Below are positions 1 through 9,684 of a stretch of 64,000 nt of DNA, in pieces. The DNA comes from a virus. The stretch is taken from positions 1-64,000 of the IMG/VR virus record IMGVR_UViG_3300028392_000053; one strand, given 5' to 3'. Below the pieces are notes generated by a model, which was given only the letters and a program-made list of their open reading frames with translations, did no database searches and was not told where the DNA came from. Numbering within the stretch: the stretch's first letter is position 1; each line of letters begins with the position of its first letter. The position numbers and the translations under genes are program-made.

Positions 1-7
1 ATGTAAG

Positions 8-202
8 ATGATTATGTTTAAAGTGATAGGAAAAGAAGAATCGTTTAAGGTTCTTACACTTGCAGAAGCAATGAATCTTGCTAAAAATATGAATGAGTTT
101 GTGACCATCCGTGGTCCTGATTTTGAAGTTGTTGGCAAATTCGGTGTGGATGTTGTGACCGATCCAAACTATGATGGTTGGATATCACGGAAAAAAGGTT
201 AA
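8..202 (+). CDS. hypothetical protein
   Basis: 64-aa ORF ending just before tRNA-Cys. Confidence 0.6.
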   Translation: MIMFKVIGKEESFKVLTLAEAMNLAKNMNEFVTIRGPDFEVVGKFGVDVVTDPNYDGWISRKKG

Positions 203-203
203 T

Positions 204-279
204 GTCGGCATGACCCGAATGGCTAGGGAACGGATTGCAACCCCGTTATATGCAGGTTCGACTCCTGTTGCCGACTCCA
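204..279 (+). tRNA. trnC: tRNA-Cys(GCA)
   Basis: Acceptor GTCGGCA/TGCCGAC, anticodon GCA, TTCGA T-loop, encoded CCA. Confidence 0.92.
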
Positions 280-357
280 CTTTTCATAAAGGTTGTTTTT
301 ATGACCTTTATGACTGGTTTTTGTTCGTAATGGCTCTTTTTAAGACCTTTATGACAG

Positions 358-418
358 TGTTGTTTTTTAACAACAACATGCAAATAGATGTTGACAAAGC
401 CGCTGGTTCTGTTATACT
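358..418 (+). promoter_or_regulatory. sigma70-type promoter with upstream TGTTG-N8-CAACA palindrome
   Basis: Palindrome 358-375, TTGACA 391-396, TATACT 413-418. Confidence 0.7.
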
Positions 419-463
419 CTATGCATAGATTGAGAAATCAATAAGTAACTGCGAAAAAGCAGA

Positions 464-524
464 TGTTGTTTTTAAGCAACAAAGCGAAAAAAGTAGTTGC
501 CAAGAAAGATAGTTGTGTTATAAT
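464..524 (+). promoter_or_regulatory. sigma70-type promoter with upstream TGTTG-N8-CAACA palindrome
   Basis: Palindrome 464-481, TTGCCA 497-502, TGnTATAAT ending 524. Confidence 0.7.
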
Positions 525-591
525 AGACACATAGCAACAAATGATTGAGTCAGTTGCAAGAAAGTTCTTTAAAAAGTTAAGTGTAATTTGT

Positions 592-666
592 GCTCCTGTC
601 GTCTACTGGCTAGGACGCTGCCCTTTCAAGGCGGAAAAGAGGGATCGAAACCCTTCAGGAGTACCA
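592..666 (+). tRNA. trnE: tRNA-Glu(TTC)
   Basis: Cloverleaf, anticodon loop CTTTCAA, CCA. Confidence 0.92.
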
Positions 667-880
667 TATTAAAATGCATTAGGTTACCAACCCAGTAGGT
701 ACCTTAGCAGAGAACTATTCCTAGTGACGGCTAGGCTCTGCTAAGACTACATGAAGCCCCCCGAAGGTGCTGGAACAAGTTGGAATGTAATGTGTTTGAC
801 AAACAAGTCCGTGGACGGCACGGTAGGGCAGGATCAAAACTGTTATTTTTGTCAAACATCCTAGTGTGTTTTAATATGGT
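663..880 (+). ncRNA. structured ncRNA closed by 21-bp stem (family B)
   Basis: 663-683 pairs with 860-880 with G-U pairs; internal TGTTTGACAAA/TTTGTCAAACA helix; no ORF. Confidence 0.65.
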
Positions 881-882
881 AG

Positions 883-1010
883 TGTCATTTGTTTTGTTGA
901 TGTAAGCCATGAGGGAAACGTCAACCTTGAGTAACTATGTACAGAAACGGTAATTGTTGCAACTGACTCCGTTGAGCATAGCAAATAGTGCGTCAACAAA
1001 ACAAATGATA
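883..1010 (+). ncRNA. structured ncRNA closed by 22-bp stem
   Basis: TGTCATTTGTTTTGTTGATGTA pairs with TGCGTCAACAAAACAAATGATA; ends 1 nt before tRNA-Lys. Confidence 0.6.
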
Positions 1011-1011
1011 T

Positions 1012-1085
1012 GGGGGTATAACTTAGTGGTAAAGTAGTAGGCTTTTAACCTATTAACCAGAGTTCAATTCTCTGTGCCCCTACCA
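1012..1085 (+). tRNA. trnK: tRNA-Lys(TTT)
   Basis: Cloverleaf, loop CTTTTAA, CCA. Confidence 0.93.
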
Positions 1086-1093
1086 AAGATTTT

Positions 1094-1159
1094 AGGATAA
1101 GTTCAGCAAACATTTATACATTTGACTTTTAATCAAAACCGTAAAAAATTATCCTGTTG
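1094..1159 (+). ncRNA. Y-RNA-like ncRNA (family A) carrying a Lys(UUU) anticodon stem-loop
   Basis: AGGATAA/TTATCCT closing stem, GTTCAGCAA motif, internal TTTGA-CTTTTAA-TCAAA. Confidence 0.75.
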
Positions 1160-1165
1160 TATTTT

Positions 1166-1241
1166 GCCCTGGTGACGGAATGGTATACGTACTGGTCTTA
1201 GAAACCAGGTTCTGAGAGTTCGAGTCTCTCCTAGGGCACCA
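1166..1241 (+). tRNA. trnL: tRNA-Leu(TAG), short variable loop
   Basis: Cloverleaf, loop CTTAGAA, 5-nt variable region, CCA. Confidence 0.9.
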
Positions 1242-1371
1242 AATCGGAAAGCAAAAACTTTCTGTTAATCCATACATTATGTGTATGGCGGGTCCAGCGG
1301 GGCATCACATGGTGTTCTTTCGGTGTCCACGTTAGAGACACGGCTAAAGTTCGTAATGCCACATATTTTTA

Positions 1372-1446
1372 GGTCTTAAAGTGTTCATGGACGCACACAT
1401 GCCTGTCACGCATGAAGAAGGGGATCGTTACCCCTTAAGACCGCCA
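1372..1446 (+). tRNA. trnD: tRNA-Asp(GTC)
   Basis: Cloverleaf, loop CTGTCAC, GCCA end. Confidence 0.9.
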
Positions 1447-1452
1447 AGATTT

Positions 1453-1526
1453 CCTCCGTTAGCTCAATGGTAGAGCAATCGGCTGATAACCGATAGACAG
1501 AAGTTCAATTCTTCTACAGAGGACCA
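1453..1526 (+). tRNA. trnI: tRNA-Ile(GAT)
   Basis: Cloverleaf, loop CTGATAA, CCA. Confidence 0.9.
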
Positions 1527-1532
1527 AGTTTT

Positions 1533-1590
1533 AGAATCCATTCAGCAAATAAAAACTTTCACTGGAAATGAAAAAAAGCGGATTCTGTTG
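1533..1590 (+). ncRNA. Y-RNA-like ncRNA (family A) carrying a Ser(GGA) anticodon stem-loop
   Basis: AGAATCC/GGATTCT closing stem, ATTCAGCAA motif, internal TTTCA-CTGGAAA-TGAAA. Confidence 0.75.
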
Positions 1591-1597
1591 TATTTTT

Positions 1598-1685
1598 GGA
1601 GCCTGTTCCCTTCAGCGGACTGTAAATCCGTTGCCTTTAATTGGAGGGTGGTTGGCGGATGGTTCGATTCCTTCAGGCTCCACCA
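1598..1685 (+). tRNA. trnY: atypical tRNA-Tyr(GTA) lacking a canonical D-arm
   Basis: Acceptor GGAGCCT/AGGCTCC-ACCA, loop CTGTAAA, T-loop TTCGATT; only ~10 nt between acceptor and anticodon stems. Confidence 0.7.
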
Positions 1686-1687
1686 GT

Positions 1688-1716
1688 TGCCAACATATAT
1701 AAAGTATGTTATAATA
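1688..1716 (+). promoter_or_regulatory. sigma70-type promoter inside tRNA array
   Basis: TTGCCA followed by TGTTATAAT just upstream of tRNA-fMet. Confidence 0.6.
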
Positions 1717-1723
1717 GTTTTAT

Positions 1724-1798
1724 CGCGGGATAGGAAAGAGGTAATCCGCTAGGTTCATACCCTAGAGATCGGTGGTTCAATTCCACCTCCCGCAACCA
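1724..1798 (+). tRNA. trnM: tRNA-fMet(CAT), initiator-like
   Basis: C1:A72 mismatch, CAT anticodon, CCA. Confidence 0.85.
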
Positions 1799-1804
1799 GT
1801 TTTC

Positions 1805-1878
1805 GCCCTATTAGTATAATGGTATTACACCTGTTTTGTAATCAGGTTACGGCAGTTCGATTCTGTCATGGGGCACCA
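1805..1878 (+). tRNA. trnT: tRNA-Thr(TGT)
   Basis: Cloverleaf, loop TTTGTAA, CCA. Confidence 0.92.
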
Positions 1879-1887
1879 AGTTTTTTT

Positions 1888-1961
1888 GCGGGGTTAGTTT
1901 AATGGTAAAACTACAGATTTCCAATCTGTTGTTGAGAGTTCGATTCTCTCACCCCGCTCCA
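1888..1961 (+). tRNA. trnG: tRNA-Gly(TCC)
   Basis: Cloverleaf, loop TTTCCAA, TCCA end. Confidence 0.93.
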
Positions 1962-1967
1962 GTTTAT

Positions 1968-2033
1968 GCAGTCGGATATTAACCGTGTTGGGGTCCACCC
2001 AATATCTACGTGGGAATCGTAGTGACTGCTCCA
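1968..2033 (+). ncRNA. 66-nt miniature tRNA-like RNA ending TCCA (Gly-like)
   Basis: GCAGTC/GACTGC acceptor-like stem, three hairpins, central loop GGTCCAC, no TTCG T-loop. Confidence 0.6.
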
Positions 2034-2038
2034 GTTTT

Positions 2039-2112
2039 CTCGGTGTGGTGAAATGGTATCATGCATGGTTTGGGACCATGTGGCGAAGGTTCGATTCCTT
2101 CTACCGAGACCA
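2039..2112 (+). tRNA. trnP: tRNA-Pro(TGG)
   Basis: Cloverleaf, loop TTTGGGA, CCA. Confidence 0.92.
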
Positions 2113-2130
2113 GTTTTATAGTTAGAATAT

Positions 2131-2206
2131 TCCGGTGAAGCAAACTAGGTGTGGGCAGAGGACTGTTAATCCTTGAAGCCAGGTTCGAATCCTGGGACCG
2201 GAGCCA
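2131..2206 (+). tRNA. trnN: tRNA-Asn(GTT)
   Basis: Cloverleaf, loop CTGTTAA, GCCA. Confidence 0.88.
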
Positions 2207-2211
2207 ATTTT

Positions 2212-2285
2212 GGGGAATTAGTATAATGGTATTACGGCAGCCTTGCAAGTTGTTCATAGGAGTTCGATTCTCCTATTCTCCACCA
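2212..2285 (+). tRNA. trnA: tRNA-Ala(TGC)
   Basis: Cloverleaf, G3:U70, loop CTTGCAA, CCA. Confidence 0.93.
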
Positions 2286-2291
2286 AATTTA

Positions 2292-2366
2292 GGTGATATG
2301 ACGTAGATGGATGCGTAACGGTTTCATAAGCCGATGAGGAAGGCTCGGTACCTTCTATCACCACCA
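2292..2366 (+). tRNA. trnM: tRNA-Met(CAT)
   Basis: Cloverleaf, loop TTCATAA, atypical T-loop CTCGGTA, CCA. Confidence 0.82.
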
Positions 2367-2380
2367 AAAGATACGAAACT

Positions 2381-2388
2381 TATAAATA
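2381..2388 (+). promoter_or_regulatory. T4-type late promoter TATAAATA
   Basis: Exact T4 gp55 consensus upstream of RBS AAGGAG and HNH ORF. Confidence 0.6.
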
Positions 2389-2411
2389 GTTCGTATACTT
2401 AAGGAGATAAC

Positions 2412-2840
2412 ATGAAAATATGTTCTTGTTGTAAAATAGAATATCCAATAGAAAAATTTGCCTTTAAAAATAAGGCATTAGATAAAAGAAATGCAATGTG
2501 TGATGATTGTAGGCAAGAGAGACAAAAACTTTCTTATTATAAACACCACGAAACGAATTTGAAAAGAATTAAACAATATAAAAAAGACAATAAAGAATGG
2601 TTTTTCGAAATGAAAAATAAACTATCTTGTTGTGTTTGTGGTGAATCGGAATCTTATTGTTTAGATTTTCACCATCTTGATGTTGCTAAAAAAGAGTTTG
2701 ATATTTCCACAAAAGTGGATGCTAGTAAAAATAAAATTTTAGAAGAAATCAATAAGTGTGCTTGTCTATGTGCAAATTGTCACAGAAAACATCACGCCGG
2801 CAAATTAAATGCGCCTTTGGTGAAACTGGATATCACATGA
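2412..2840 (+). CDS. HNH endonuclease (zinc-finger type)
   Basis: CxxC pairs, LDFHH...LCANCHRKHH; RBS AAGGAG; 3' end overlaps tRNA-Arg. Confidence 0.85.
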   Translation: MKICSCCKIEYPIEKFAFKNKALDKRNAMCDDCRQERQKLSYYKHHETNLKRIKQYKKDNKEWFFEMKNKLSCCVCGESESYCLDFHHLDVAKKEFDISTKVDASKNKILEEINKCACLCANCHRKHHAGKLNAPLVKLDIT

Positions 2841-2886
2841 GTCTACGAAATTCAGATTGGGGATTCGAATTCCTCAGGGCGCACCA
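2811..2886 (+). tRNA. trnR: tRNA-Arg(ACG)
   Basis: GCGCCTT/AGGGCGC-ACCA, loop CTACGAA. Confidence 0.9.
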
Positions 2887-2903
2887 ATTTTTAGGAGTTT
2901 TAA

Positions 2904-3038
2904 ATGGCTAATGTTAAAAAAGGCAATCTGACTGGTGCTCCACAATGGTGGAAACACCTCAAAGATTTCAAACGAGTGTTTTGGAAAACAGAACGCAAGG
3001 CTCAACAAAAAGACCTAAAAGGAAGATTGTATGAGTGA
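2904..3038 (+). CDS. small basic hypothetical protein (44 aa, MANVKKGNLTGAPQWWKHLK...)
   Basis: RBS AGGAG, overlaps start of next ORF; below ORF-track cutoff. Confidence 0.6.
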   Translation: MANVKKGNLTGAPQWWKHLKDFKRVFWKTERKAQQKDLKGRLYE

Positions 3039-3237
3039 TGGTGGAAAAGGTTCGTCACCCAGACCTTATAGTGTTTCGCAAAACGAATTCTCTAAGAATT
3101 GGGACACAATCTTTAGAAAAGATCCACGGGAAATTGAGGATCAAAAAAATGAAGATGAGGCTTTTGAAGAAATTTCACGGAGAGTCCTAGATATGCCTGG
3201 AACAATTGGTTCAGCTAAAATTGTTTTTTCCGTGTGA
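3031..3237 (+). CDS. hypothetical protein
   Basis: 68-aa ORF starting MSDGGKGSSPRP. Confidence 0.65.
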   Translation: MSDGGKGSSPRPYSVSQNEFSKNWDTIFRKDPREIEDQKNEDEAFEEISRRVLDMPGTIGSAKIVFSV

Positions 3238-3258
3238 TTCAGAAGTTAAAAATAATAT

Positions 3259-3332
3259 GTCTCGATAGTGTAATGGCAGCACTGCGGTCTCCAAAACCGT
3301 AAGTCTAGGTTCGAGTCCTAGTCGGGATGCCA
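3259..3332 (+). tRNA. trnW: tRNA-Trp(CCA)
   Basis: Cloverleaf, loop CTCCAAA, GCCA. Confidence 0.92.
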
Positions 3333-3346
3333 AATAAGGAAATGAT

Positions 3347-3838
3347 ATGAAAAATTTTGATATCCAAAAAGTAAAAGATTTTATTTTGGCTCAAGGACCA
3401 GACACACGTGTTTACCTTGGTGCAGACTCCGAACGTATGCGTGTAAACGGAGTTTGGTATGCGGATTACGCTTTGGCTGTCGTTGTTCATATCGATGGTT
3501 GTCACGGATGTAAAATCTTCGGATTTGTTGACCGTGAATTAGATTATGACCACAAGAAGTCCAAGCCTGCAATGCGTTTGATGACAGAAGTTTACAAAGT
3601 ATCCGCTCTGTTCCAAGAAATGCAGGATGTATTGGAAGACCGTCACGTTGAAGTTCACTTGGACCTTAACAAGTCAACTGAACACGGTTCTTCTTGTGTT
3701 GTTCAACAAGCAATTGGTTATATCAAAGGTACATGTAACATGACACCAATGGTTAAGCCAGATGCGCCGGCCGCTTCTTTCTGTGCAGACCGTCTAAAGC
3801 GGATTCTAGCAGAACAAGAATTGACCGAAGCCCACTAA
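3347..3838 (+). CDS. RNase H-like YkuK (DUF458) family protein
   Basis: YLGADS, RLMTEV, EVHLDLN, ASFCAD motifs. Confidence 0.75.
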   Translation: MKNFDIQKVKDFILAQGPDTRVYLGADSERMRVNGVWYADYALAVVVHIDGCHGCKIFGFVDRELDYDHKKSKPAMRLMTEVYKVSALFQEMQDVLEDRHVEVHLDLNKSTEHGSSCVVQQAIGYIKGTCNMTPMVKPDAPAASFCADRLKRILAEQELTEAH

Positions 3839-3877
3839 TCTCCTACATAAGGGTTTAACTACCCTTAGGAGATTAGT

Positions 3878-4261
3878 ATGGCTAGAAAACCAAATTTAGC
3901 AAAGACTGCGAATAGAGATACACACGTTGGTCATGGAATGGATAGAAGTCCTAAATGGCCTGGTGTTCAGAAACTACATTTGAAGTTTCATCCTGTTTGC
4001 GAATCTTGTGGTTCAACTAACAATTTGAATGTCCATCATAAGAAGCCATTCCATTTGTTTCCAGAACATGAATTGGATTTAAATAATCTAATTACACTTT
4101 GTATGGATCCATTGAAAGAGTGTCATATTAAAATTGGACATGGTGATAACTTTAAAGACTACAATCCAGAAGTAGAAACAGATGCACAAAAAGTTCGATT
4201 AGATGTTAATTTATTTGAATCGGTTGTAGCAGAAGCAAAGAAGAAACGTTTAATATCTTAA
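3878..4261 (+). CDS. HNH endonuclease
   Basis: CESCG...NVHHKKP...NLITLC...CHIKIGH. Confidence 0.8.
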   Translation: MARKPNLAKTANRDTHVGHGMDRSPKWPGVQKLHLKFHPVCESCGSTNNLNVHHKKPFHLFPEHELDLNNLITLCMDPLKECHIKIGHGDNFKDYNPEVETDAQKVRLDVNLFESVVAEAKKKRLIS

Positions 4262-4302
4262 ACACGGCTGGACCCTCTGCGAAAGTGCGGTCCAGTTCTC
4301 AT

Positions 4303-4376
4303 GCGGGTATGATGTAATGGTAGCTTATGACCTTGCCAAGGTTAATGTGAGAGTTCGATTCTCTCTACCCGCTCCA
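4303..4376 (+). tRNA. trnG: tRNA-Gly(GCC)
   Basis: Cloverleaf, loop TTGCCAA, TCCA. Confidence 0.92.
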
Positions 4377-4384
4377 GTTTTTAT

Positions 4385-4459
4385 GTGGTTGTTAGTTTAG
4401 TGGCAAAACCGCGGGTTGTGATTCCGCTATCACGGGTTCGATTCCCGTACATCCACCCA
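4385..4459 (+). tRNA. trnH: tRNA-His(GTG)
   Basis: G-1:C73, loop TTGTGAT, CCA. Confidence 0.92.
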
Positions 4460-4478
4460 ATTTTATTAAGGATATTTT

Positions 4479-4718
4479 ATGACGTATGTTCCATTGAATC
4501 GTAATGTAATTGTTGAACGAAAAGCACCAGAGAAAGTTTCTGCTGGTGGTATCATTCTTCAATCTTCACTTGAACCAGACCGTGCAACTGTTGTTGCTAC
4601 CTCTGACGAATCCCTTTCAATTGGTGAAGAACTATTGATTAATTGGAACAAAGCATATAAGATTGAAAATGAAACATATCGTATTCACATTGATGATGTG
4701 ATTGCAGTATTTGAATAA
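4479..4718 (+). CDS. groES: GroES-like co-chaperonin
   Basis: PLNRNVIVER...SAGGIIL mobile loop...DDVIAV. Confidence 0.85.
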   Translation: MTYVPLNRNVIVERKAPEKVSAGGIILQSSLEPDRATVVATSDESLSIGEELLINWNKAYKIENETYRIHIDDVIAVFE

Positions 4719-4793
4719 GCCTTGTTAACTCAGCGGTAGAGTGCCCTCCTTACAAGTGGGAAGCCGGCGGTTCGATCCCGTCACAAGGTACCA
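4719..4793 (+). tRNA. trnV: tRNA-Val(TAC)
   Basis: Cloverleaf, loop CTTACAA, CCA. Confidence 0.92.
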
Positions 4794-4796
4794 AGT

Positions 4797-4975
4797 TTTG
4801 TAAGTGTAGATGTAGTGAAAGTAAGGCGTCGAAAACCTTATGAGGCAACGGTTCGAGTCCGGCAACATGGCAACGGCTAAGTAACTACTATTACTACGTA
4901 CCTCTATCCTGTCCGCGGCTTTAAAGAAAATACAGGTAGAATGGTTTCGATGAGTGAGGTGGAACTACTTACAAA
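4797..4975 (+). ncRNA. putative structured ncRNA (~180 nt)
   Basis: TTTGTAAGT/ACTTACAAA closing stem, internal hairpins, T-loop-like CGGTTCGAGTCCG, no ORF. Confidence 0.5.
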
Positions 4976-5028
4976 TTCAATTTCTCCATAACACACGGAG
5001 TATAATAGGATAAGTTGTGTGTTAATTT

Positions 5029-5102
5029 GCTTTTATCGTACAGTGACAGTACACGCCCTTGGTACGGGCGAAACCCAAGTTTGATTCTTGGTAGAAGCAC
5101 CA
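5029..5102 (+). tRNA. trnT: tRNA-Thr(GGT)
   Basis: Cloverleaf, loop TTGGTAC, CCA. Confidence 0.87.
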
Positions 5103-5106
5103 ATTT

Positions 5107-5182
5107 GCGTCTTTAGCTGATATGGTTATAGCACCGGTTTGAAGCACCGAGGAAAGTGGTTCGATTCCACTAGGACGCACCA
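5107..5182 (+). tRNA. trnF: tRNA-Phe(GAA)
   Basis: Cloverleaf, loop TTGAAGC, CCA. Confidence 0.9.
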
Positions 5183-5305
5183 TATTGAAACATATTCATC
5201 ATTGGTTGGGAGCCTGTAGCGGATGGCATCCGGGACTACTCAACGAAACAGCATTAGCCAGCGTGATGAAAAGCCTCTTGACGGCGAGAGTATGTTTCAA
5301 TATGG
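5180..5305 (+). ncRNA. structured ncRNA closed by 18-bp stem (family B)
   Basis: CCATATTGAAACATATTC pairs with GAGTATGTTTCAATATGG. Confidence 0.65.
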
Positions 5306-5378
5306 GTTGTAAACTTAAGTGGTGAAGTAACCGGCTCTTAACCGGAAGAACAGAGTTCGATTCTCTGACAGCCCACCA
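5304..5378 (+). tRNA. trnK: tRNA-Lys(CTT)
   Basis: Cloverleaf, loop CTCTTAA, CCA. Confidence 0.92.
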
Positions 5379-5383
5379 AATTT

Positions 5384-5510
5384 GGAGATGTGATGTAATG
5401 GTAGCATAGCATAGCAAAAAAATTATCCTGTAAAGGATAAGTTCTGCAACAACTACGCTCTAACTCTGTAAAAGTTCTTGTGTGCGGTTCGAATCCCACC
5501 ATCTCCACCA
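5384..5510 (+). ncRNA. chimeric tRNA / family A RNA (circularly permuted, CCA-ended)
   Basis: Acceptor GGAGATG/CATCTCC-ACCA with D- and T-arms; insert TTATCCT-GTAA-AGGATAA-GTTCTGCAA plus AACT-CTGTAAA-AGTT hairpin. Confidence 0.75.
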
Positions 5511-5517
5511 ATTTTAT

Positions 5518-5593
5518 GCCCCGATGACGGAATGGTATACGTGCTTGATTCAAAATCAAGATTCTGTGGGTTCGAGTCCCACTTGGGGTACCA
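5518..5593 (+). tRNA. trnL: tRNA-Leu(CAA), short variable loop
   Basis: Cloverleaf, loop TTCAAAA, CCA. Confidence 0.9.
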
Positions 5594-5594
5594 T

Positions 5595-5683
5595 GGAAGA
5601 TGCAGTAAGATGGTTCTTACACCTGCTTGGAAAGCAGGCCACTGGCTTTGCCGGTGGGGGTTCAATTCCTCCTTCTTCCACCA
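5595..5683 (+). tRNA. trnS: tRNA-Ser(GGA)
   Basis: Long variable arm, loop TTGGAAA, CCA. Confidence 0.9.
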
Positions 5684-5684
5684 T

Positions 5685-5759
5685 GTCTCTGTAGTTCAAC
5701 GGATAGAATACATTCCTCCTAAGAATGGGATACAGGCTCGATTCCTGTCGGAGACACCA
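5685..5759 (+). tRNA. trnR: tRNA-Arg(CCT)
   Basis: Cloverleaf, loop CTCCTAA, CCA. Confidence 0.9.
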
Positions 5760-5820
5760 TGTTGTTTTTAGGTAACAATGCAAGAAAAGTCTTGCCAAAT
5801 TACACTTAACGTGATATAAT
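5760..5820 (+). promoter_or_regulatory. promoter for Y-like RNA + DUF2828 unit
   Basis: TGTTG-N8-TAACA 5760-5777, TTGCCA 5792-5797, 17-nt spacer, TATAAT 5815-5820. Confidence 0.75.
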
Positions 5821-5848
5821 CTTTATATGGAGATTATATAAGTTTTTT

Positions 5849-6060
5849 AGGATGGATTCAGCAATTATAAACTTAATTGACTAAAGACCCGTTACTACAG
5901 GAGGACCACCGCAAGGTGTAATTACGTAACTAGGGAATCAACCTGAATTAAATTTGACGCTGGAAAAGACAGCAAAGATGATGGTAGTCCATTAGGGTTT
6001 GAGTGGTTCAATTGCACTCCGGTTAGAGTAAACCGAAAATTACAGAACGACCATCCTGTT
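5849..6060 (+). ncRNA. long Y-RNA-like ncRNA (family A)
   Basis: AGGATGG/CCATCCT stem, ATTCAGCAA motif, multi-hairpin interior with T-arm-like GAGTGGTTCAATTGCACTC. Confidence 0.72.
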
Positions 6061-6079
6061 ATTTTATTTTGAGAGTTTT

Positions 6080-6188
6080 AGAGTAGGTTCAGCAAAACAA
6101 AACTAGCTGGTTCGATTCCAGCATTATCCACCCAAACTCGAAAGAGACTCGGATCATGTGCCATGGTGGCAATCAAACTACTCTGTTG
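6080..6188 (+). ncRNA. YrlA-like Y RNA (family A)
   Basis: AGAGTAG/CTACTCT stem, GTTCAGCAA, T-arm GCTGG-TTCGATT-CCAGC preceding a D-like hairpin. Confidence 0.78.
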
Positions 6189-6193
6189 TTTTT

Positions 6194-6314
6194 AGGTTAA
6201 GTTCCGCAAAACAAATTAATGCAAATGGAAACTGAAAGGCCGGTTCGATTCCGGGTTCCCTTAGAGGATAAAGTGTAATGGTTGCACATCGGATGCTAAA
6301 AGTTTAACCTGTTG
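6194..6314 (+). ncRNA. YrlA-like Y RNA (family A)
   Basis: AGGTTAA/TTAACCT stem, GTTCCGCAA, T-arm CCGG-TTCGATT-CCGG then D-arm GTGTAATGGTTGCAC. Confidence 0.8.
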
Positions 6315-6332
6315 ATTGAAAAGGAGTTCATT

Positions 6333-7754
6333 ATGTCAACATTTGTCGAAGCCGTTATGAATCAAGAAGCCCGTACCGAAAACGGTATGAAGGCTCGCAA
6401 GTCTACCGCCAATGCGGTGGTTGATTTGTTTTACAATGCGGGTGCATCCCGTGGAAAAGATATTAAGCCTGCATTTGCGGCTGCCTTGGCAGAGAACCGT
6501 GAATTGGCTCTCCGTGTTGCCGCATGGCTACGTGATGCACGTGGTGGTGCTGGTGAACGTCAACTGTTCCGTGATATCCTAGTGTATCTGGAAAAGACTG
6601 ATACGGAAGCCGCTAAGGCTCTGTTGGCTAAGGTGCCTGAATTGGGACGTTGGGATGACTTGTTCATCTTCAAGACCAAGGTTTTGAAAGAAGCCGCATA
6701 TACCTTGCTTGGCAACGCTTTGCGTGAAAAGAATGGTTTGGCGGCTAAGTGGTCTCCTCGCCAAGGTCCAATTGCGGCAGAAATCCGTACATTCTTCGGA
6801 ATGTCACCAAAGTTCTACCGCAAGTCTTTGGTTGAAATGACCAAGGTTGTTGAAACAAATATGTGTGCAAAGGACTGGGATTCCATTAACTTTTCACATG
6901 TTCCTTCCGTAGCGGCTGCCCGTTACAAGAAGGCCTTTAATCGTAACACCCAAACATATGCAACTTATGTTGCGGCTTTGGTAAAGGGTGACAACCCTGA
7001 AGTTAAGGTTAACGCATCTGTGGCATTCCCATATGATGTGCTGAAGGGTCGTATCTCCAACTATGGAGTTTCATTCAACAAGACCGAATTGGACTTGATT
7101 GAAGCACAATGGAATGCATTGCCTAACTATGTTGGGGATGCTAACATTCTGCCTCTAGTTGACGTATCTGGTTCTATGACCTGCACCGCAGGCAAGACCG
7201 GTAAGTTGACCTGTTTGGAAGTTGCAGTCTCTTTGGGATTGTACCTTGCTGACAAGAACAAGGGTGCGTTCAAGGACACATTCTTGACCTTCTCTGGCAA
7301 GCCAGAATTGATGCACCTAAAAGGTGGTATCAACTCTAAGATTGACCAAATGGTTAAGTCCAACTGGGATATGAACACTGACCTGAACAAGGCCTTTGCG
7401 AAAATCCTAGACGTTGCTGTAAAAGGTAACGTAGCACAAGAAGATATGCCAGGAATGGTGTTGATTCTGTCTGACATGCAATTTGACGCTTGCGTTAAGC
7501 ATGATGACTCTGCAATCGAAATGATTGCACGTAAGTACGAAGCCGCAGGATACACTTTACCAAAGGTTGTATTCTGGAACTTGAACGCCTCATATGGTAA
7601 CTCACCTGTGAAGTTTGACAAGTCTGGTACTGCACTGGTGTCTGGTTTCTCTCCAGCCGTGGTTAAGCCACTCCTTGCTGGTGACCTAGAAACCTTCACA
7701 CCAGAATCTGTGATGCTTAAGACCATCATGGATGACCGTTACAAAGTGCTGTAA
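6333..7754 (+). CDS. DUF2828-type helical + vWA protein, Ro60/TROVE-like putative RNA-binding protein
   Basis: RTENG, LRDARGGAGER, GRWDDL, LAAKW, MIDAS DVSGS, ILSDMQFD, VFWNL, LVSGFS; RBS AAGGAG before ATG 6333. Confidence 0.8.
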   Translation: MSTFVEAVMNQEARTENGMKARKSTANAVVDLFYNAGASRGKDIKPAFAAALAENRELALRVAAWLRDARGGAGERQLFRDILVYLEKTDTEAAKALLAKVPELGRWDDLFIFKTKVLKEAAYTLLGNALREKNGLAAKWSPRQGPIAAEIRTFFGMSPKFYRKSLVEMTKVVETNMCAKDWDSINFSHVPSVAAARYKKAFNRNTQTYATYVAALVKGDNPEVKVNASVAFPYDVLKGRISNYGVSFNKTELDLIEAQWNALPNYVGDANILPLVDVSGSMTCTAGKTGKLTCLEVAVSLGLYLADKNKGAFKDTFLTFSGKPELMHLKGGINSKIDQMVKSNWDMNTDLNKAFAKILDVAVKGNVAQEDMPGMVLILSDMQFDACVKHDDSAIEMIARKYEAAGYTLPKVVFWNLNASYGNSPVKFDKSGTALVSGFSPAVVKPLLAGDLETFTPESVMLKTIMDDRYKVL

Positions 7755-7774
7755 CGCAGTGGGCACCGAAAGGT

Positions 7775-7860
7775 GTCCATTTTGAAATACATTACTGAAG
7801 TTGGTTCAGTCAGACAGGGATATCCAATTGCCTATGTCGTTAGTGTGTTTCAAAATGGAC
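7775..7860 (+). ncRNA. structured ncRNA closed by 20-bp stem (family B)
   Basis: GTCCATTTTGAAATACATTA pairs with TAGTGTGTTTCAAAATGGAC. Confidence 0.62.
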
Positions 7861-7862
7861 AT

Positions 7863-7940
7863 GCGGATGTAGCCGAATTTGGTATAGGCAATGGACTTAA
7901 AATCCATAATCTGAGGGTTCGAGTCCCTCTATCCGCACCA
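7863..7940 (+). tRNA. trnL: tRNA-Leu(TAA), short variable loop
   Basis: Cloverleaf, loop CTTAAAA, CCA. Confidence 0.9.
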
Positions 7941-7943
7941 AAT

Positions 7944-8018
7944 GCTCCGATAGCTTAATGGTAAAGCAGTGAACTCATAATTCATTGAGTCTAGGTTCAA
8001 TTCCTAGTCGGAGCACCA
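7944..8018 (+). tRNA. tRNA(CAT), Met or Ile2
   Basis: Cloverleaf, loop CTCATAA, CCA; third CAT tRNA in the array. Confidence 0.85.
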
Positions 8019-8039
8019 ATGTTTTGGATATATAAGGCC

Positions 8040-8474
8040 ATGAAAAAGCTAATTCCTATTCAATCTCTGGACCATCCACTTGCAGGTCACCTAAAAGACG
8101 ATCCAATTCGTCCAGAAATTCCTCATGAAATGAGAGTTGGTATTAACTGTGAGGTACTAGCACTCCAGTTAGAAGAAATTTTAGGTGCAATGGTATGCGT
8201 CAAATACCATGATTCAATTCCATCAAGCGTAGATGAATTGCTAGAGACCGCAAAGAATCCTTCAGTTGCTGTATTTTACACAATATGGAGTTATGCCGCA
8301 GGCGCAGGCAGAGATTTACTCCTTGAAGCCAGAAAATACATTGAGGGTAATAATCCAAACATAAAAGAGTTTGTGACTTATAGCCCAAAAACTGAAATGG
8401 CCAAACGTTTTCATTTAAAAAACGGTGCGTCCATTTACAGAGAAAATCTCGATTCAGTAAACTACAAATATTGA
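8040..8474 (+). CDS. hypothetical protein (possible GNAT-like fold)
   Basis: FYTIWSY..GAGR.LL and A.RFH.KNGA motifs. Confidence 0.6.
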   Translation: MKKLIPIQSLDHPLAGHLKDDPIRPEIPHEMRVGINCEVLALQLEEILGAMVCVKYHDSIPSSVDELLETAKNPSVAVFYTIWSYAAGAGRDLLLEARKYIEGNNPNIKEFVTYSPKTEMAKRFHLKNGASIYRENLDSVNYKY

Positions 8475-8553
8475 TTCCCACTTTGCCGGTTTGATAAATA
8501 GTTGTGTTGGTGTGAAACCAACCACAATTTTGTCAACACCCTAAAGGAAAAAA

Positions 8554-9684
8554 ATGTTCAAAAAGATGCCTTTTATGGTACTTTTTGTCATGTCTACATC
8601 AATTTCCGTTGCTCAGACAACGTATGATTCGAAAACTCTGGTAGATACAAACAGTACCTCTACCAGCACAAGTACCGTTAATACCAATAACGTAAACTCT
8701 GGAACAATTACAAACATCAATAATACTGATGTTAAAAGTATTTCCACGAACAACAATAACAACGTTAACGCAAGTACGTCTACCAGTGTAAACACGAATA
8801 ACAACGTAAACTCTGGCTCTATGACCTACACGAATAACAACGTAAACTCTGGTACGTTGACCAACAATAACAATAACGTCAACGCCAGCACAAACACAAA
8901 CATCAATAGTGGAACAATGACATACAACAATGTCAACTCTGGTTCCATGACAAACACCAATAATAACTCAAACGTTAGTACAAACACTAACAATAACGTT
9001 AACACTGGTGATATGACTAATCGAAACATCAACACATCCACTGCGGCTTCAACCTCAACAAACGTAAACACGAACAACAACATAAACTCCGGTACAATGA
9101 CAAACAACAATGTCAATACTGGTGATATGACTAATCGTAACATCAATACGTCTACAGCCGCTACGGATAACAAAAATACAAACGTCAACACCTCAACTAA
9201 CGTTAATCAAAATGTACAGACTGGTGATATGACTAATCGTAACATCAATGAAACAACCATTACACAAAAAGTAATACAACCTCCACCAACAGCAGTTGCT
9301 CCAACAATGATGAGTGGTGGTAATGCAGATTTATGTTCTACTGGTACATCAGGTTCCGTGCAAACACAAATCTTCGGCGTTTCTTCTGGTGGCACTGTTA
9401 GAGATATGAATTGTGAACGTTTAAAATTGTCTAAGACTCTTTACGATATGGGAATGAAAGTGGCTGCCGTTGCAACCATGTGTCAAGACCGTAGGGTATT
9501 TGATGCTATGTTGGCTGCCGGCACACCATGTCCTTATGAAGGCAAAATTGGTGAACAAGCTAAACAACTATGGGAAGATAATCCCGGAAAGCTACCAGTA
9601 ATGGAAGAGGTTAAATCTGATGACACGTATAAGAAAATTGGCATTGGTGCTTTGCTCGGCGCTATTGTCTTTAAACTATTCTAA
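8554..9684 (+). CDS. secreted Asn/Thr-repeat protein with Cys-containing C-terminal domain and membrane anchor
   Basis: Signal peptide, NNNVNSG/TGDMTNRNIN repeats, C-terminal hydrophobic segment. Confidence 0.8.
   Translation: MFKKMPFMVLFVMSTSISVAQTTYDSKTLVDTNSTSTSTSTVNTNNVNSGTITNINNTDVKSISTNNNNNVNASTSTSVNTNNNVNSGSMTYTNNNVNSGTLTNNNNNVNASTNTNINSGTMTYNNVNSGSMTNTNNNSNVSTNTNNNVNTGDMTNRNINTSTAASTSTNVNTNNNINSGTMTNNNVNTGDMTNRNINTSTAATDNKNTNVNTSTNVNQNVQTGDMTNRNINETTITQKVIQPPPTAVAPTMMSGGNADLCSTGTSGSVQTQIFGVSSGGTVRDMNCERLKLSKTLYDMGMKVAAVATMCQDRRVFDAMLAAGTPCPYEGKIGEQAKQLWEDNPGKLPVMEEVKSDDTYKKIGIGALLGAIVFKLF

What the first reader, a model, noticed from the sequence alone, without database searches (positions are those of the whole stretch)
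1533..1590. Mini-RNA displaying a free tRNA-Ser(GGA) anticodon arm
Same scaffold with a different stem sequence, and again a 5-bp stem plus 7-nt loop: TTTCA-CTGGAAA-TGAAA (1557-1573), held on A-rich linkers. Two copies with canonical anticodon loops of different identity argue for a modular anticodon-display design rather than chance. A full tRNA-Ser(GGA) is also encoded at 5595.
Basis: partly seen in the sequence, partly recalled or inferred. Interest (0 to 1): 0.85.

Follow-up and report, generated by a model that had tools for sequence, protein, structure and literature searches.

The report
Anticodon-arm look-alike on phage handle RNA
A 52-base gene inside a freshwater phage's tRNA cluster encodes a small RNA with a look-alike of a tRNA anticodon hairpin on a conserved "handle"; the handle travels with a Ro60-like protein gene, so the RNA may serve as bait for enzymes that read or cut tRNA anticodon loops.

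Summary
Window 1533-1586 has a 7-bp end helix, a single-stranded AUUCAGCAAA motif, A-rich linkers, and the hairpin UUUCA-CUGGAAA-UGAAA at 1557-1573.

It is one of five direct copies of a "handle" RNA in this phage, plus one permuted copy. Three copies sit in one operon with a DUF2828/DUF7788 gene, a helical plus vWA protein whose vWA domain is Ro60-like.

- **RNA family:** a covariance model finds 170 copies in the window plus 77 related loci, all on the gene strand. Both helices covary.
- **Anticodon-like hairpin:** of 60 distinct small copies, 48 carry a 5-bp/7-nt hairpin (shuffles: 4.2). Of these, 40 have U33 and a purine at 37 (shuffles: 0.6).
- **Variable triplet:** copies on the same backbone read GGA, GUU, GUC, GAA or GUA. 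Serine identity is therefore not conserved.
- **Sibling copy (1095-1154):** it shows the published PARIS AriB site of tRNA-Lys exactly.
- **Linkage to the protein:** the handle lies beside the same gene in Felix O1, RSP15 and P100.

Best reading: a partner RNA of the Ro60-like protein that displays a swappable anticodon-loop bait. Binding and the decoy role are untested.

This scan has noted the same system on other DNA at least 144 times. I found no paper or Rfam family describing it.

The parts
1533..1539 (+). 5' strand of the end helix of the handle (AGAATCC)
   Evidence: Pairs with 1580-1586. In the model-fitted alignment of 116 distinct copies, 100% of cells are paired and 6 of 7 pairs change on both sides.
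1540..1549 (+). Conserved single-stranded handle motif ATTCAGCAAA
   Evidence: TTC.GCAA is invariant in all five window copies and in 55 aligned minis. It is the part matched by the Rfam Dicty_Class_I_RNA consensus.
1550..1556 (+). A-rich 5' linker
   Evidence: Read. Its length and sequence vary among relatives.
1557..1573 (+). Anticodon-arm look-alike: 5-bp stem TTTCA/TGAAA with 7-nt loop CTGGAAA (triplet GGA)
   Evidence: The inner helix is 94-97% paired, with double changes at all 5 pairs.
1574..1579 (+). A-rich 3' linker (AAAAGC)
1580..1586 (+). 3' strand of the end helix (GGATTCT)
1587..1596 (+). 3' tail GTTGTATTTT. With T1586 it gives the invariant UGUU. It ends where the next tRNA begins.
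   Evidence: CTGTT is invariant. Minis end 10-13 nt before the next tRNA.
1453..1526 (+). Upstream tRNA-Ile(GAU), same transcription unit
   Evidence: ARAGORN. An RNA-library contig spans 1374-1597.
1597..1682 (+). Downstream tRNA-Tyr(GUA)-like gene with a long variable arm, missed by ARAGORN here
   Evidence: Rfam tRNA-Sec model, 33.6 bits. In relatives ARAGORN calls tRNA-Tyr(GTA) 11-13 nt after the orthologous mini.
497..524 (+). Sigma-70-like promoter (11 of 12, TG extension), the likely start of the unit that holds both minis
   Evidence: The next such promoter is at 1687-1715.
1095..1154 (+). Sibling mini RNA: handle stem GGATAA/TTATCC with hairpin TTTGA-CTTTTAA-TCAAA (UUU, 1121-1137)
   Evidence: 49.4 bits. 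Positions 36-41 read UAAUCA, the AriB site given for E. coli tRNA-Lys in PMC12409363.
5850..6056 (+). Large handle RNA 1 (stem GGATGG/CCATCC)
   Evidence: (z -3.05).
6081..6183 (+). Large handle RNA 2 (stem GAGTAG/CTACTC) with a T-arm-like GCTGGTTCGATTCCAGC
   Evidence: A relative without it is seen as a joint from 6065 to 6190 in an RNA-library contig.
6195..6309 (+). Large handle RNA 3 (stem GGTTAA/TTAACC) with a T-arm-like CCGGTTCGATTCCGG. It ends 11 nt before the ribosome-binding site of the protein gene.
   Evidence: 36.7 bits.
5792..5820 (+). Promoter of the operon holding three handle RNAs plus the protein gene
   Evidence: 11 of 12.
6312..7754 (+). DUF2828 + DUF7788 (vWA) protein, the putative partner of the handle. 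The likely start is ATG 6333, after AAGGAG.
   Evidence: Pfam 1e-48 and 1.6e-21. PHROG 850 'RNA-binding protein'. The vWA part is homologous to that of Ro60.
5384..5510 (+). Permuted copy: a tRNA-like frame (acceptor stem, D and T arms, CCA) whose anticodon arm is replaced by TTATCC-TGTAAA-GGATAA-GTTCTGCAA
   Evidence: z -2.53. Weak tmRNA hit, 17.8 bits.

Best explanation
Window 1533-1586, with its short tails, is a gene for a small stable RNA of an undescribed 'handle RNA' family.

1. It is transcribed within a tRNA operon (inferred).
2. It is freed by the enzymes that trim its neighbours. 3' maturation of tRNA-Ile sets its 5' end, and RNase P cutting at the next tRNA sets its 3' end, ...CUGUUGUAUUUU (inferred from spacing).
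3. It folds into a 7-bp end helix flanked by the single-stranded motifs RUUCAGCAA and UGUU, which together form the handle. It also folds into an inner 5-bp/7-nt hairpin shaped like a tRNA anticodon arm (shown by covariation).
4. The handle docks the RNA on the phage's DUF2828/vWA protein, a Ro60-like RNA binder encoded 4.7 kb downstream in one operon with three larger handle RNAs (inferred from linkage and from the Ro60/Y-RNA precedent).
5. The hairpin is exchangeable cargo. It presents an anticodon-loop look-alike, here GGA, to a factor that reads anticodon loops. That factor is most likely a host tRNA-cutting defence nuclease that is baited or sequestered. Less likely it is a tRNA-modifying or repair enzyme that is recruited (speculative).
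For: **Real RNA family**
- The motif-plus-closure scan finds 165 elements at 280 motif sites on the gene strand and 6 at 190 on the other strand, in 1.15 Mb.
- The covariance model finds 170 of 170 hits on the gene strand.
- The covariation score is 0.502 against 0.126 shuffled (0 of 500 shuffles reach it). Slid partners give at most 0.069.

**Anticodon-like cargo**
- 48 of 60 distinct minis have a 5-bp/7-nt hairpin (shuffles: mean 4.2, maximum 12).
- 40 of 60 have U33 plus R37 (shuffles: mean 0.6, maximum 4). There are 20 different compensated stems.
- Position 34 is G or U in 37 of 38 and A in 1 of 38, although the interiors are A-rich.

**Exchangeable triplet**: 15 triplets occur. GGA, GUU, GUC, GAA and GUA all sit on the same GAATCC backbone.

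**Processing**: minis sit 7-10 nt after one tRNA and 10-13 nt before the next. There are strong promoters at 497-524 and 5792-5820, and no terminator-like site at the mini. A 234-nt contig from an RNA library spans tRNA-Asp, tRNA-Ile and the mini.

**Link to the protein**
- Three copies share an operon with the gene. In many relatives a mini ends 1-12 nt before the gene.
- A DNA-pattern scan found 44 contigs with closed handles, and 27 of them carry the gene. 15 of the 17 others are at most 20% complete.
- Handles lie beside the gene in Felix O1 (4), RSP15 (6) and P100 (3), whose proteins are 34-44% identical.

**Ro60 likeness**
- The four best PDB profile hits are all Ro60 (E 0.03-0.07).
- hhalign against a TROVE alignment gives E 2.1e-5 over the vWA domain.
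- Depositors call the homologs 'Ro-like RNA binding protein'.

**Nuclease link**
- The sibling mini carries U36AAUCA41, the AriB site. UGU, UUU and GUU, the three AriB targets (abstract and passages of PMC12409363), are among the commonest triplets.
- 37 of 40 real tRNA-Lys(UUU) genes of these phages have C39 instead of U39.
- P100 and LeBron carry RNA-repair genes.
Against: - No experiment shows that the RNA accumulates, binds the protein, or meets a nuclease. The RNA-library evidence is contigs only, and these can hold DNA.
- Folding energy alone gives nothing (z -0.09), and the MFE of this copy does not form the hairpin.
- The helical N-terminal part of the protein did not align to TROVE. 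The ring fold was therefore not tested here.
- About a quarter of loops break tRNA rules (A32 in 9 of 38, U37 in 7 of 38). RSP15 minis have C at position 33.
- One class of minis (GCTAAC...CTAGC) has no anticodon-like loop.
- No nuclease known to me targets tRNA-Ser(GGA) in a relevant host, and the host is unknown.
- AriB also needs D-loop contacts, which a bare hairpin lacks.
- A 114-kb contig, 71% complete, has a handle but no DUF2828 gene.
- The terminal-helix count on alignment A3 is circular, because my scan demanded pairing.
Confidence: 0.5

Rival explanations
1. The RNA is a handle RNA of the DUF2828 protein, but the inner hairpin is only a structural U-turn loop of the particle, for example a contact for the protein or for a host exonuclease as in Ro60/Y-RNA/PNPase. 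The three 'anticodon' bases are simply the least constrained positions and drift. No tRNA is being imitated.
For: On the same backbone, variation concentrates at loop positions 35-36 while positions 33, 34 and 38 stay fixed. The stem is generic, AU-only and shared among different triplets, and is unlike any phage tRNA stem. A32 occurs in 24% and U37 in 18% of loops, against 1% each in real tRNAs. Phage phiLo Ro60 with its Y-like RNAs binds host PNPase (abstract and passages of PMC12135203).
Against: Larger family members carry unmistakable tRNA parts: T-arms, D-arms, and in L032 a tRNA body without the acceptor stem. A34 is almost absent, as in real anticodons (1 of 38 against 4% in tRNAs), despite A-rich interiors. 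The sibling mini reproduces six consecutive bases of the published tRNA-Lys cleavage site. The loop of this copy equals real tRNA-Ser(GGA) loops.
Confidence: 0.27
2. It is only a structured spacer that helps tRNA precursor processing or insulates neighbouring tRNAs. It has no life of its own after cleavage.
For: The spacing to both neighbouring tRNAs is very regular, at 7-10 and 10-13 nt. It sits inside a tRNA operon.
Against: The same handle occurs away from tRNAs, directly before the DUF2828 start codon, in this window and many relatives. It also occurs upstream of the gene in P100, where no tRNA on that strand adjoins it. Most tRNA junctions in the array have no such element. A spacer would not need a conserved single-stranded motif plus an anticodon-like loop.
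Confidence: 0.08
3. It is a decayed remnant of a tRNA gene, of which only the anticodon arm survives.
For: It lies in a tRNA array. Minis tend to show anticodons whose tRNA is missing from the fetched part of the same phage: 35 of 56 have a cognate tRNA present, against 41.6 expected.
Against: The handle is conserved and covaries over phages whose proteins are only 34-44% identical. The stems are not those of the phages' tRNAs. A remnant would not keep a perfect helix in 116 distinct copies.
Confidence: 0.04
4. The hairpin is a chance feature of an AT-rich spacer.
For: Folding energy is no better than for shuffles.
Against: as given above.
Confidence: 0.01

Closest known systems
Ro60 (Rsr, TROVE + vWA) with Y RNAs: bacterial and mycobacteriophage YrlA/YrlB (Rfam RF02553; Chen et al. 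2014, PMC4201824, passages read) and Thermus phage phiLo Ro60 with Yrl1/Yrl2 (PMC12135203, abstract and passages read)
   Same: Small RNAs are encoded next to, and on the strand of, a helical + vWA RNA-binding protein gene. The 5' and 3' ends pair into a stem with a conserved motif beside it. A variable module imitates tRNA parts. There are several different RNAs per genome. The vWA domains are homologous (E 2.1e-5).
   Different: The protein is DUF2828/DUF7788, not Pfam TROVE. The motif is RUUCAGCAA plus UGUU, not GNCGAA/CGAA. There is no Rfam YrlA or Y_RNA match on it. The cargo here is a bare anticodon-arm look-alike with a swappable triplet, whereas YrlA mimics the T/D-arm body and lacks a canonical anticodon loop. 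Many copies sit inside tRNA operons, kilobases from the gene.
Class I RNAs of Dictyostelium (Rfam RF01414; Kjellin et al. 2021, PMC7919456, passages and section 15 read)
   Same: The length is similar: 42-65 nt there, 52-60 here. Both have a 6-bp end stem whose sequence covaries, a conserved first G preceded by A, a conserved motif directly after the 5' strand (model consensus CCUUACAGCAA against AUUCAGCAA here and UUACAGCAA in Felix O1), an end in CUGU, and a variable A/U-rich interior. The Rfam model hits exactly the handle RNAs, full length, in three phages: 34.5 and 17.0 bits here, 20.1 in Felix O1, and 23.1 and 19.1 in P100.
   Different: No hit reaches the gathering score of 41.5. The Dictyostelium RNAs are eukaryotic genes with their own DUSE promoter. 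Their known direct binder is the RRM protein Rnp1A, and their authors found none outside dictyostelids. Homology and convergence cannot be told apart here.
Phage tRNA variants that escape anticodon nucleases (T5 tRNA-Lys, tRNA-Thr and tRNA-Asn against PARIS AriB; PMC12409363, abstract and passages read)
   Same: The same battlefield, the anticodon stem-loops of Lys(UUU), Thr(UGU) and Asn(GUU), and the same kind of phage, rich in tRNA genes. That paper itself raises the idea that viral tRNAs may inhibit AriB when overexpressed.
   Different: Those are full, functional tRNAs with a mutated site. Here the RNA cannot be charged, and in the sibling mini it keeps the sensitive-looking site U36AAUCA41, while the phage's real tRNA-Lys has C39.

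Membership tests
tRNA (RF00005) | Cloverleaf with acceptor stem, D arm, anticodon arm and T arm | tested here: not met
   ARAGORN and the Rfam tRNA model call nothing at 1527-1596. Only an anticodon-arm-like hairpin is present.
Anticodon stem-loop mimic (descriptive class) | 5-bp stem, 7-nt loop, U33, purine 37 | tested here: met
   The hairpin is TTTCA-CTGGAAA-TGAAA. The features are kept in 40 of 60 distinct relatives, against 0.6 in shuffles.
Anticodon stem-loop mimic (descriptive class) | A conserved identity (the same anticodon) in orthologs | tested here: not met
   The same backbone carries GGA, GUU, GUC, GAA and GUA.
Y RNA / YrlA (RF00019, RF02553) | Match to the Rfam covariance model | tested here: not met
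   No Y_RNA hit at E <= 1 in 1-9000. The only YrlA hit (24.8 bits, gathering score 69) lies over two tRNAs at 7884-7997.
Y RNA / YrlA (RF00019, RF02553) | Ro60-binding motif GNCGAA(N)G / CGAA in the end stem region | tested here: not met
   The handle motif is ATTCAGCAAA with UGUU. The YrlA motif is as given in PMC4201824 and PMC12135203.
Y RNA / YrlA (RF00019, RF02553) | Encoded near, and on the strand of, a TROVE-domain Ro60 gene | tested here: inconclusive
   Near, and on the strand of, a DUF2828/DUF7788 gene. Pfam TROVE does not match this genome even at E <= 10. Only the vWA part aligns to Ro60.
Y RNA / YrlA (RF00019, RF02553) | The RNA binds the Ro60-type protein | not testable with these tools
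   Needs EMSA or co-purification.
Dictyostelium Class I RNA (RF01414) | Score at or above the Rfam gathering score (41.5 bits) | tested here: not met
   34.5 bits (E 0.0014 over 9 kb).
Dictyostelium Class I RNA (RF01414) | 42-65 nt, a 6-bp covarying end stem starting with G, a conserved motif after the 5' strand, and an end in CUGU | tested here: met
   The features are as described in PMC7919456.
Dictyostelium Class I RNA (RF01414) | DUSE promoter about 60 nt upstream; a dictyostelid gene | tested here: not met
   This is a phage tRNA operon with sigma-70-like promoters.
Handle RNAs linked to DUF2828 genes (undescribed; named so in this scan) | Covarying end helix plus RUUCAGCAA and UGU flanks | tested here: met
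Handle RNAs linked to DUF2828 genes (undescribed; named so in this scan) | Co-occurrence with a DUF2828 gene on the same genome | tested here: met
   The gene is at 6312-7754. 27 of 44 pattern-found contigs carry it, and most of the others are small fragments. The handle lies beside the gene in Felix O1, RSP15 and P100.

The most novel reading that the evidence does not exclude
Handle RNAs plus DUF2828 proteins are a second, undescribed branch of the Ro60/Y-RNA world, present in hundreds of phages including Felix O1, P100 and KVP40-type phages. In this reading the RNA cargo is a programmable bait. Phages swap the three 'anticodon' bases on a fixed backbone to track whichever tRNA their hosts' defence nucleases cut, for example Lys, Thr and Asn for PARIS and the GUN set for colicin-E5-like enzymes, and the protein holds or destroys the captured enzyme. 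The unexplained Class I RNAs of Dictyostelium would be eukaryotic members of the same RNA family. If so, the uncharacterised protein DDB_G0281243, pulled down with a Class I RNA (bioRxiv 10.1101/2020.04.05.026054, passage read), could be their DUF2828-type partner.
Probability: 0.12. Interest if true: 0.92.

Novelty: new variant of a known kind. Interest (0 to 1): 0.72.

Why it matters
If the reading holds, large tRNA-rich phages carry a ribonucleoprotein system that nobody has described. These phages include model and commercial ones such as Felix O1, P100 and the staphylococcal and campylobacter myoviruses. The protein family has 710 phage records and more than 6,000 clusters at 50% identity.

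The bare anticodon hairpins would be the first RNA-level baits aimed at tRNA-targeting immunity. That would complement the known strategy of encoding nuclease-resistant tRNAs.

The swappable triplet gives a direct, cheap experimental handle: change three bases and re-test host range on strains with defined defences in laboratory hosts.

The close match to Dictyostelium Class I RNAs, whose function has been open since 2004, offers a testable partner hypothesis for that field.

Tried and rejected
**Folding and structural ideas**
- Single-sequence folding gave no energy signal on either strand, so the case rests on comparison.
- I considered a pseudoknot between CAGCA of the motif and UGUUG of the tail. 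I rejected it on topology, by inference: 3 nt cannot span two stacked helices.
- I considered reading the motif GCA-AAY as a tmRNA-like resume codon with a short tag. Nothing supports it beyond short open frames, which are expected in AT-rich sequence. ARAGORN finds no tmRNA.

**Protein tests**
- Protein against PDB by single sequence: no hit at E <= 10.
The Ro60 ring fold of this protein was therefore not tested here, and I used profile searches instead.
- RtcB, Rnl2-type and T4 Rnl1-type ligase families in the window's own 84.5-kb contig: none. The contig is about half a genome, and the Rnl1 control rang nowhere, so this shows little.

**Hypothesis tested and rejected**
- Hypothesis: a mini accompanies a resistant tRNA of the same anticodon. 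Result: 35 of 56 have a cognate tRNA present, against 41.6 +/- 2.4 expected, so if anything the reverse holds. The loci are partial and related.

**Searches with limits**
- Rfam at gathering threshold on 7 loci: 169 matches, of which the 150 listed are all tRNA. The 19 lowest-scoring were not shown. I cannot say whether a Class I hit passed there.
- My regex on LeBron found no convincing handle. In some searches I dropped, by eye, regex rows inside coding regions or without the conserved TTA-G...C-TG flanks.
- Read laying: parts of the stretch without cover in RNA libraries (for example 2517-2978 in three runs) prove nothing. Depths were not used to rank genes.
- The small-share RNA runs that I did not lay are no evidence.

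**Papers**
- Avesson et al. 2011 is not held.
- Supplements are closed. The YrlA tables of Chen et al. 2014 (22 phages) and figure S3 of PMC12409363 might bear on overlap with this family and on the exact target sites.

**Not used**: complex prediction, because it scores protein partners only.

**Literature searches behind 'not in print'**. I saw listings and abstract starts, plus the passages named above.
Full report
**What is there**

The window is the first 64 kb of an 84.5-kb IMG/VR phage contig, about half a genome. Freshwater and lake metagenomes hold it. Its first 8 kb are a tRNA array: 26 genes by ARAGORN, plus a tRNA-Tyr-like gene at 1597-1682 seen only by Rfam.

The finding lies between tRNA-Ile (ends 1526) and that tRNA-Tyr-like gene.
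- A1533-C1539 pairs with G1580-U1586.
- AUUCAGCAAA follows the 5' strand.
- A-rich linkers hold the hairpin UUUCA-CUGGAAA-UGAAA (1557-1573).
- After the helix comes UGUUGUAUUUU, up to the next tRNA.

The sibling at 1095-1154 has the same plan, with another helix (GGAUAA/UUAUCC) and the hairpin UUUGA-CUUUUAA-UCAAA.

**The scaffold is a family, and it leads to a protein gene**

Reading on, I found three larger copies of the same plan at 5850-6056, 6081-6183 and 6195-6309. Each has its own perfectly complementary helix: GGAUGG/CCAUCC, GAGUAG/CUACUC and GGUUAA/UUAACC. Two of them contain T-arm-like GGUUCGAUUCC hairpins.

These three lie between a strong sigma-70-like promoter (5792-5820) and an ORF (6312-7754). 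The likely start is ATG 6333, after AAGGAG. The ORF is DUF2828 plus DUF7788 in Pfam (1.6e-21 and 1e-48) and PHROG 850 'RNA-binding protein'.

A sixth, circularly permuted copy sits inside a tRNA-shaped frame at 5384-5510. This shows that the helix with its two flanking motifs is the unit, not the free ends. Alignment of the five direct copies leaves UUUUAG, UUC and GCAA invariant.

**Relatives**

The protein brought in 77 IMG/VR loci, at 67-97% identity.
- A plain scan looked for a 6-nt stem, one base, TTCNGCAA, then a perfect complement followed by TGT within 330 nt. It found 165 elements at 280 motif sites on the gene strand, and 6 at 190 sites on the other strand. The other strand serves as an internal control for chance closure.
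- A covariance model built from eight in-register minis found 170 matches at E <= 0.01, all on the gene strand.
- On its alignment of 116 distinct rows, the end helix is paired in 100% of cells, with changes on both sides at 6 of 7 pairs. The inner helix is paired in 94-97% of cells, with double changes at all 5 pairs.
- The covariation score is 0.502, against 0.126 in shuffles (0 of 500 reach it) and at most 0.069 with slid partners.

Two cautions apply. That alignment is fitted to the model. The earlier count on A3 is circular for the six pairs that my scan demanded.

I tabulated the inner hairpins of all 60 distinct small copies (45-64 nt).
- 48 have a 5-bp stem with a 7-nt loop, and any other loop size occurs in at most 7 of them. 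Shuffled interiors give 4.2 on average (maximum 12 in 1000).
- 40 have U33 and a purine at 37, against 0.6 in shuffles (maximum 4).
- There are 20 different stems, all complementary. For example, UUUGA/UCAAA, UUAGA/UCUAA and UUGAA/UUCAA occur in copies of the sibling mini.

In the model-based table, the 38 seven-base loops compare with 822 distinct real tRNAs of the same loci as follows:

| Position | Minis (of 38) | Real tRNAs |
|---|---|---|
| 32 | C 26, A 9 | A 1% |
| 33 | U 36 | U 100% |
| 34 | G 21, U 16, A 1 | A 4% |
| 37 | A 31, U 7 | U 1% |
| 38 | A 31 | A 80% |

The loops are therefore clearly anticodon-like, but about a quarter break a tRNA rule. The stated refutation, random loop size with no U33 or R37, did not happen.

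**The triplet is the variable part**

Fifteen triplets occur: UGU 11, GGA 7, GUU 5, UUU 5, UCU 4, GUC 3, and others.

On the very backbone of this finding (helix GAAUCC, stem UUUCA/UGAAA), close relatives differ almost only in the loop:
- GGA here.
- GUU in L004, L006, L012 and L013.
- GUC in L008.
- GAA in L003.
- GUA in L230.

Serine identity is thus not conserved. The AU-only stem is generic and unlike the GC-containing anticodon stems of the phages' own tRNAs.

The presence of a real tRNA-Ser(GGA) at 5595 is true but is the exception. Only 1 of 10 GGA minis has that tRNA in the fetched locus. Overall, minis show a cognate tRNA less often than shuffling predicts (35 of 56 against 41.6 +/- 2.4). 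The loci are partial and related to each other.

**Processing and expression**

Minis lie 7-10 nt after one tRNA and 10-13 nt before the next, or end 1-12 nt before the DUF2828 start.

The unit holding both window minis probably starts at the promoter at 497-524. No terminator-like site lies at the mini. I infer release by the tRNA-processing enzymes, with RNase P setting the 3' end.

In four metatranscriptome runs (contigs only):
- A 234-nt contig spans 1374-1597, covering tRNA-Asp, tRNA-Ile and the mini.
- A 1486-nt contig covers the protein gene.
- A 353-nt contig joins 6065 to 6190. This is a relative without large copy 2, so the copies behave as cassettes.

This shows presence in RNA libraries, not transcription.

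**The protein**

The protein family has 710 phage records, in phages of Escherichia, Salmonella, Vibrio, Listeria, Staphylococcus, Campylobacter, Mycobacterium and others. It has 6082 clusters at E <= 0.001.

| Test | Result |
|---|---|
| Pfam TROVE against this genome, Felix O1 and P100 | no match, though it matches phage Bxz1 |
| Profile of 134 family members against PDB | four best hits are all Ro60, E 0.03-0.07 |
| hhalign against a 33-sequence TROVE alignment | probability 76.6%, E 2.1e-5, over 156 columns of the vWA domain, with the shared DVSGSM and C-terminal VSGF motifs |

'Ro60-like' therefore rests here on the vWA homology, the domain order and depositors' names. Earlier notes of this scan claim a ring fold from predicted structures, which I could not check.

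LeBron gp53, a homolog, is moderately toxic when overproduced. LeBron also has an RNA ligase and a polynucleotide kinase (passages of PMC13148394). P100 has an RtcB-type ligase and an RNA ligase 1.3-4 kb downstream of its copy.

**Does the handle travel with the gene?**

From the gene side, handles lie beside it in three of four distant phages:
- Felix O1: 4, in the tRNA array just downstream.
- RSP15: 6.
- P100: 3, just upstream.
- LeBron: none by my regex.

From the RNA side, a DNA pattern for the 5' half alone returned 80 loci. 44 of them close a handle, and 40 of those hold at least 3 tRNAs. A pattern that I mis-spaced by one base returned 80 loci, none of which closes a handle and 2 of which have the gene.

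Of the 44 contigs with closed handles, 27 carry the DUF2828 gene. Of the other 17, 15 are at most 20% complete. One contig, 71% complete, lacks the gene.

**Known systems**

It works like a Y RNA: end helix, motif, tRNA-like module, next to a Ro60-type gene. It fails the membership tests for YrlA: no model match, a different motif, and a non-TROVE protein.

The Rfam model for Dictyostelium Class I RNA hits the handle RNAs full length and at exactly their coordinates in three phages, but always below threshold (34.5, 17.0, 20.1, 23.1 and 19.1 bits against 41.5). The published description of that family fits point by point: 42-65 nt, a 6-bp covarying stem, a first G, a motif after the 5' strand, and an end in CUGU (PMC7919456). 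One protein pulled down with a Class I RNA, DDB_G0281243, has no known function (preprint passage). Whether it is a DUF2828 protein I could not look up.

**The nuclease link**

PARIS AriB cuts tRNA-Lys(UUU), Thr(UGU) and Asn(GUU) at U36AAUC|A41. UAAU is conserved, and a change at U39 abolishes cutting (PMC12409363).
- The sibling mini reads U36AAUCA41 exactly.
- The phage's real tRNA-Lys next to it reads UAACCU, and 37 of 40 real tRNA-Lys(UUU) genes in these phages have C39.
- UGU, UUU and GUU are among the commonest mini triplets.
- The G34 series on this finding's backbone includes the GUN set.

This fits a bait, but it is correlation. AT-rich sequence favours UAAU. AriB also needs the D loop. 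The host and its defences are unknown, and GGA has no known nuclease that I can name.

**Verdict**

The RNA family and its anticodon-like, swappable cargo are well supported. The protein partnership is supported by linkage only. The decoy role is a reasoned guess.

The same system has been noted by this scan on other DNA: 172 notes in at least 144 genomes, including notes on this window. I reached the handle and DUF2828 reading, before opening those notes, and they agree.

New here:
- The same-backbone triplet series.
- The spacing rule.
- The negative cognate-tRNA test.
- The exact AriB-site match beside a C39 tRNA-Lys.
- The RNA-to-protein co-occurrence test with its accidental control.
- The DDB_G0281243 lead.

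Noticed in passing
window 1597-1682: A tRNA-Tyr(GUA)-like gene with a long variable arm and encoded CCA. ARAGORN missed it here, but Rfam's tRNA-Sec model hit it (33.6 bits), and it is called tRNA-Tyr in relatives.
   Followed up: partly
window 5384-5510: A tRNA-shaped frame (acceptor stem, D and T arms, CCA) whose anticodon arm is replaced by a circularly permuted handle (TTATCC-TGTAAA-GGATAA-GTTCTGCAA). There is a weak tmRNA hit (17.8 bits), and the fold has z -2.53.
   Followed up: partly
window 6065-6190: An RNA-library contig of a relative joins 6065 to 6190 with six other letters between, so it lacks large handle RNA 2. The copies are gained and lost as cassettes.
   Followed up: no
window 1012-1085 and 1121-1137: The phage's real tRNA-Lys(UUU) reads UAACCU at positions 36-41. 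The mini 10 nt downstream reads UAAUCA, the published AriB site of E. coli tRNA-Lys.
   Followed up: partly
related loci: Minis tend to show anticodons whose tRNA is absent from the fetched part of the same phage: GGA 1 of 10, UCU 1 of 4, UGA 0 of 2, GUU 2 of 5. This is the opposite of what I expected.
   Followed up: partly
L274 (IMG/VR 3300043409_002417), mini with stem GGATCC: One mini has the loop CTTCAAC, triplet UCA, which would read the UGA stop codon.
   Followed up: no
G020 = contig of L248 (114 kb, 71% complete): The contig carries a closed handle RNA in a 30-tRNA stretch but has no DUF2828 match. It is a possible exception to the RNA-protein linkage.
   Followed up: no
window 667-1011, 1242-1371, 1962-2038, 4794-5028, 5183-5303: Non-coding gaps of 75-345 nt inside the tRNA array, with neither a tRNA call nor a handle. 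1962-2038 ends in CTCCA like a tRNA 3' end.
   Followed up: no
window 2412-2840 and 3878-4261: Small Cys-rich or HNH endonuclease ORFs lie between tRNA genes (Pfam HNH 1.8e-5 for 3878-4261), as in Felix O1 and RSP15.
   Followed up: no
L082 (Listeria phage P100) 7123-11509; LeBron genome: Genes annotated as RNA repair lie near or with the DUF2828 gene: an RtcB-type tRNA splicing ligase, an RNA ligase, an HD phosphohydrolase and a tRNA amidotransferase. LeBron gp53 is toxic when overproduced (PMC13148394).
   Followed up: partly
window 1541-1545 with 1562-1566: In this copy the handle motif UUCAG can pair with the loop bases CUGGA, and this pairing is the predicted MFE. C32-U33-G34 of the whole G34 series is complementary to the CAG of the motif.
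   Followed up: no
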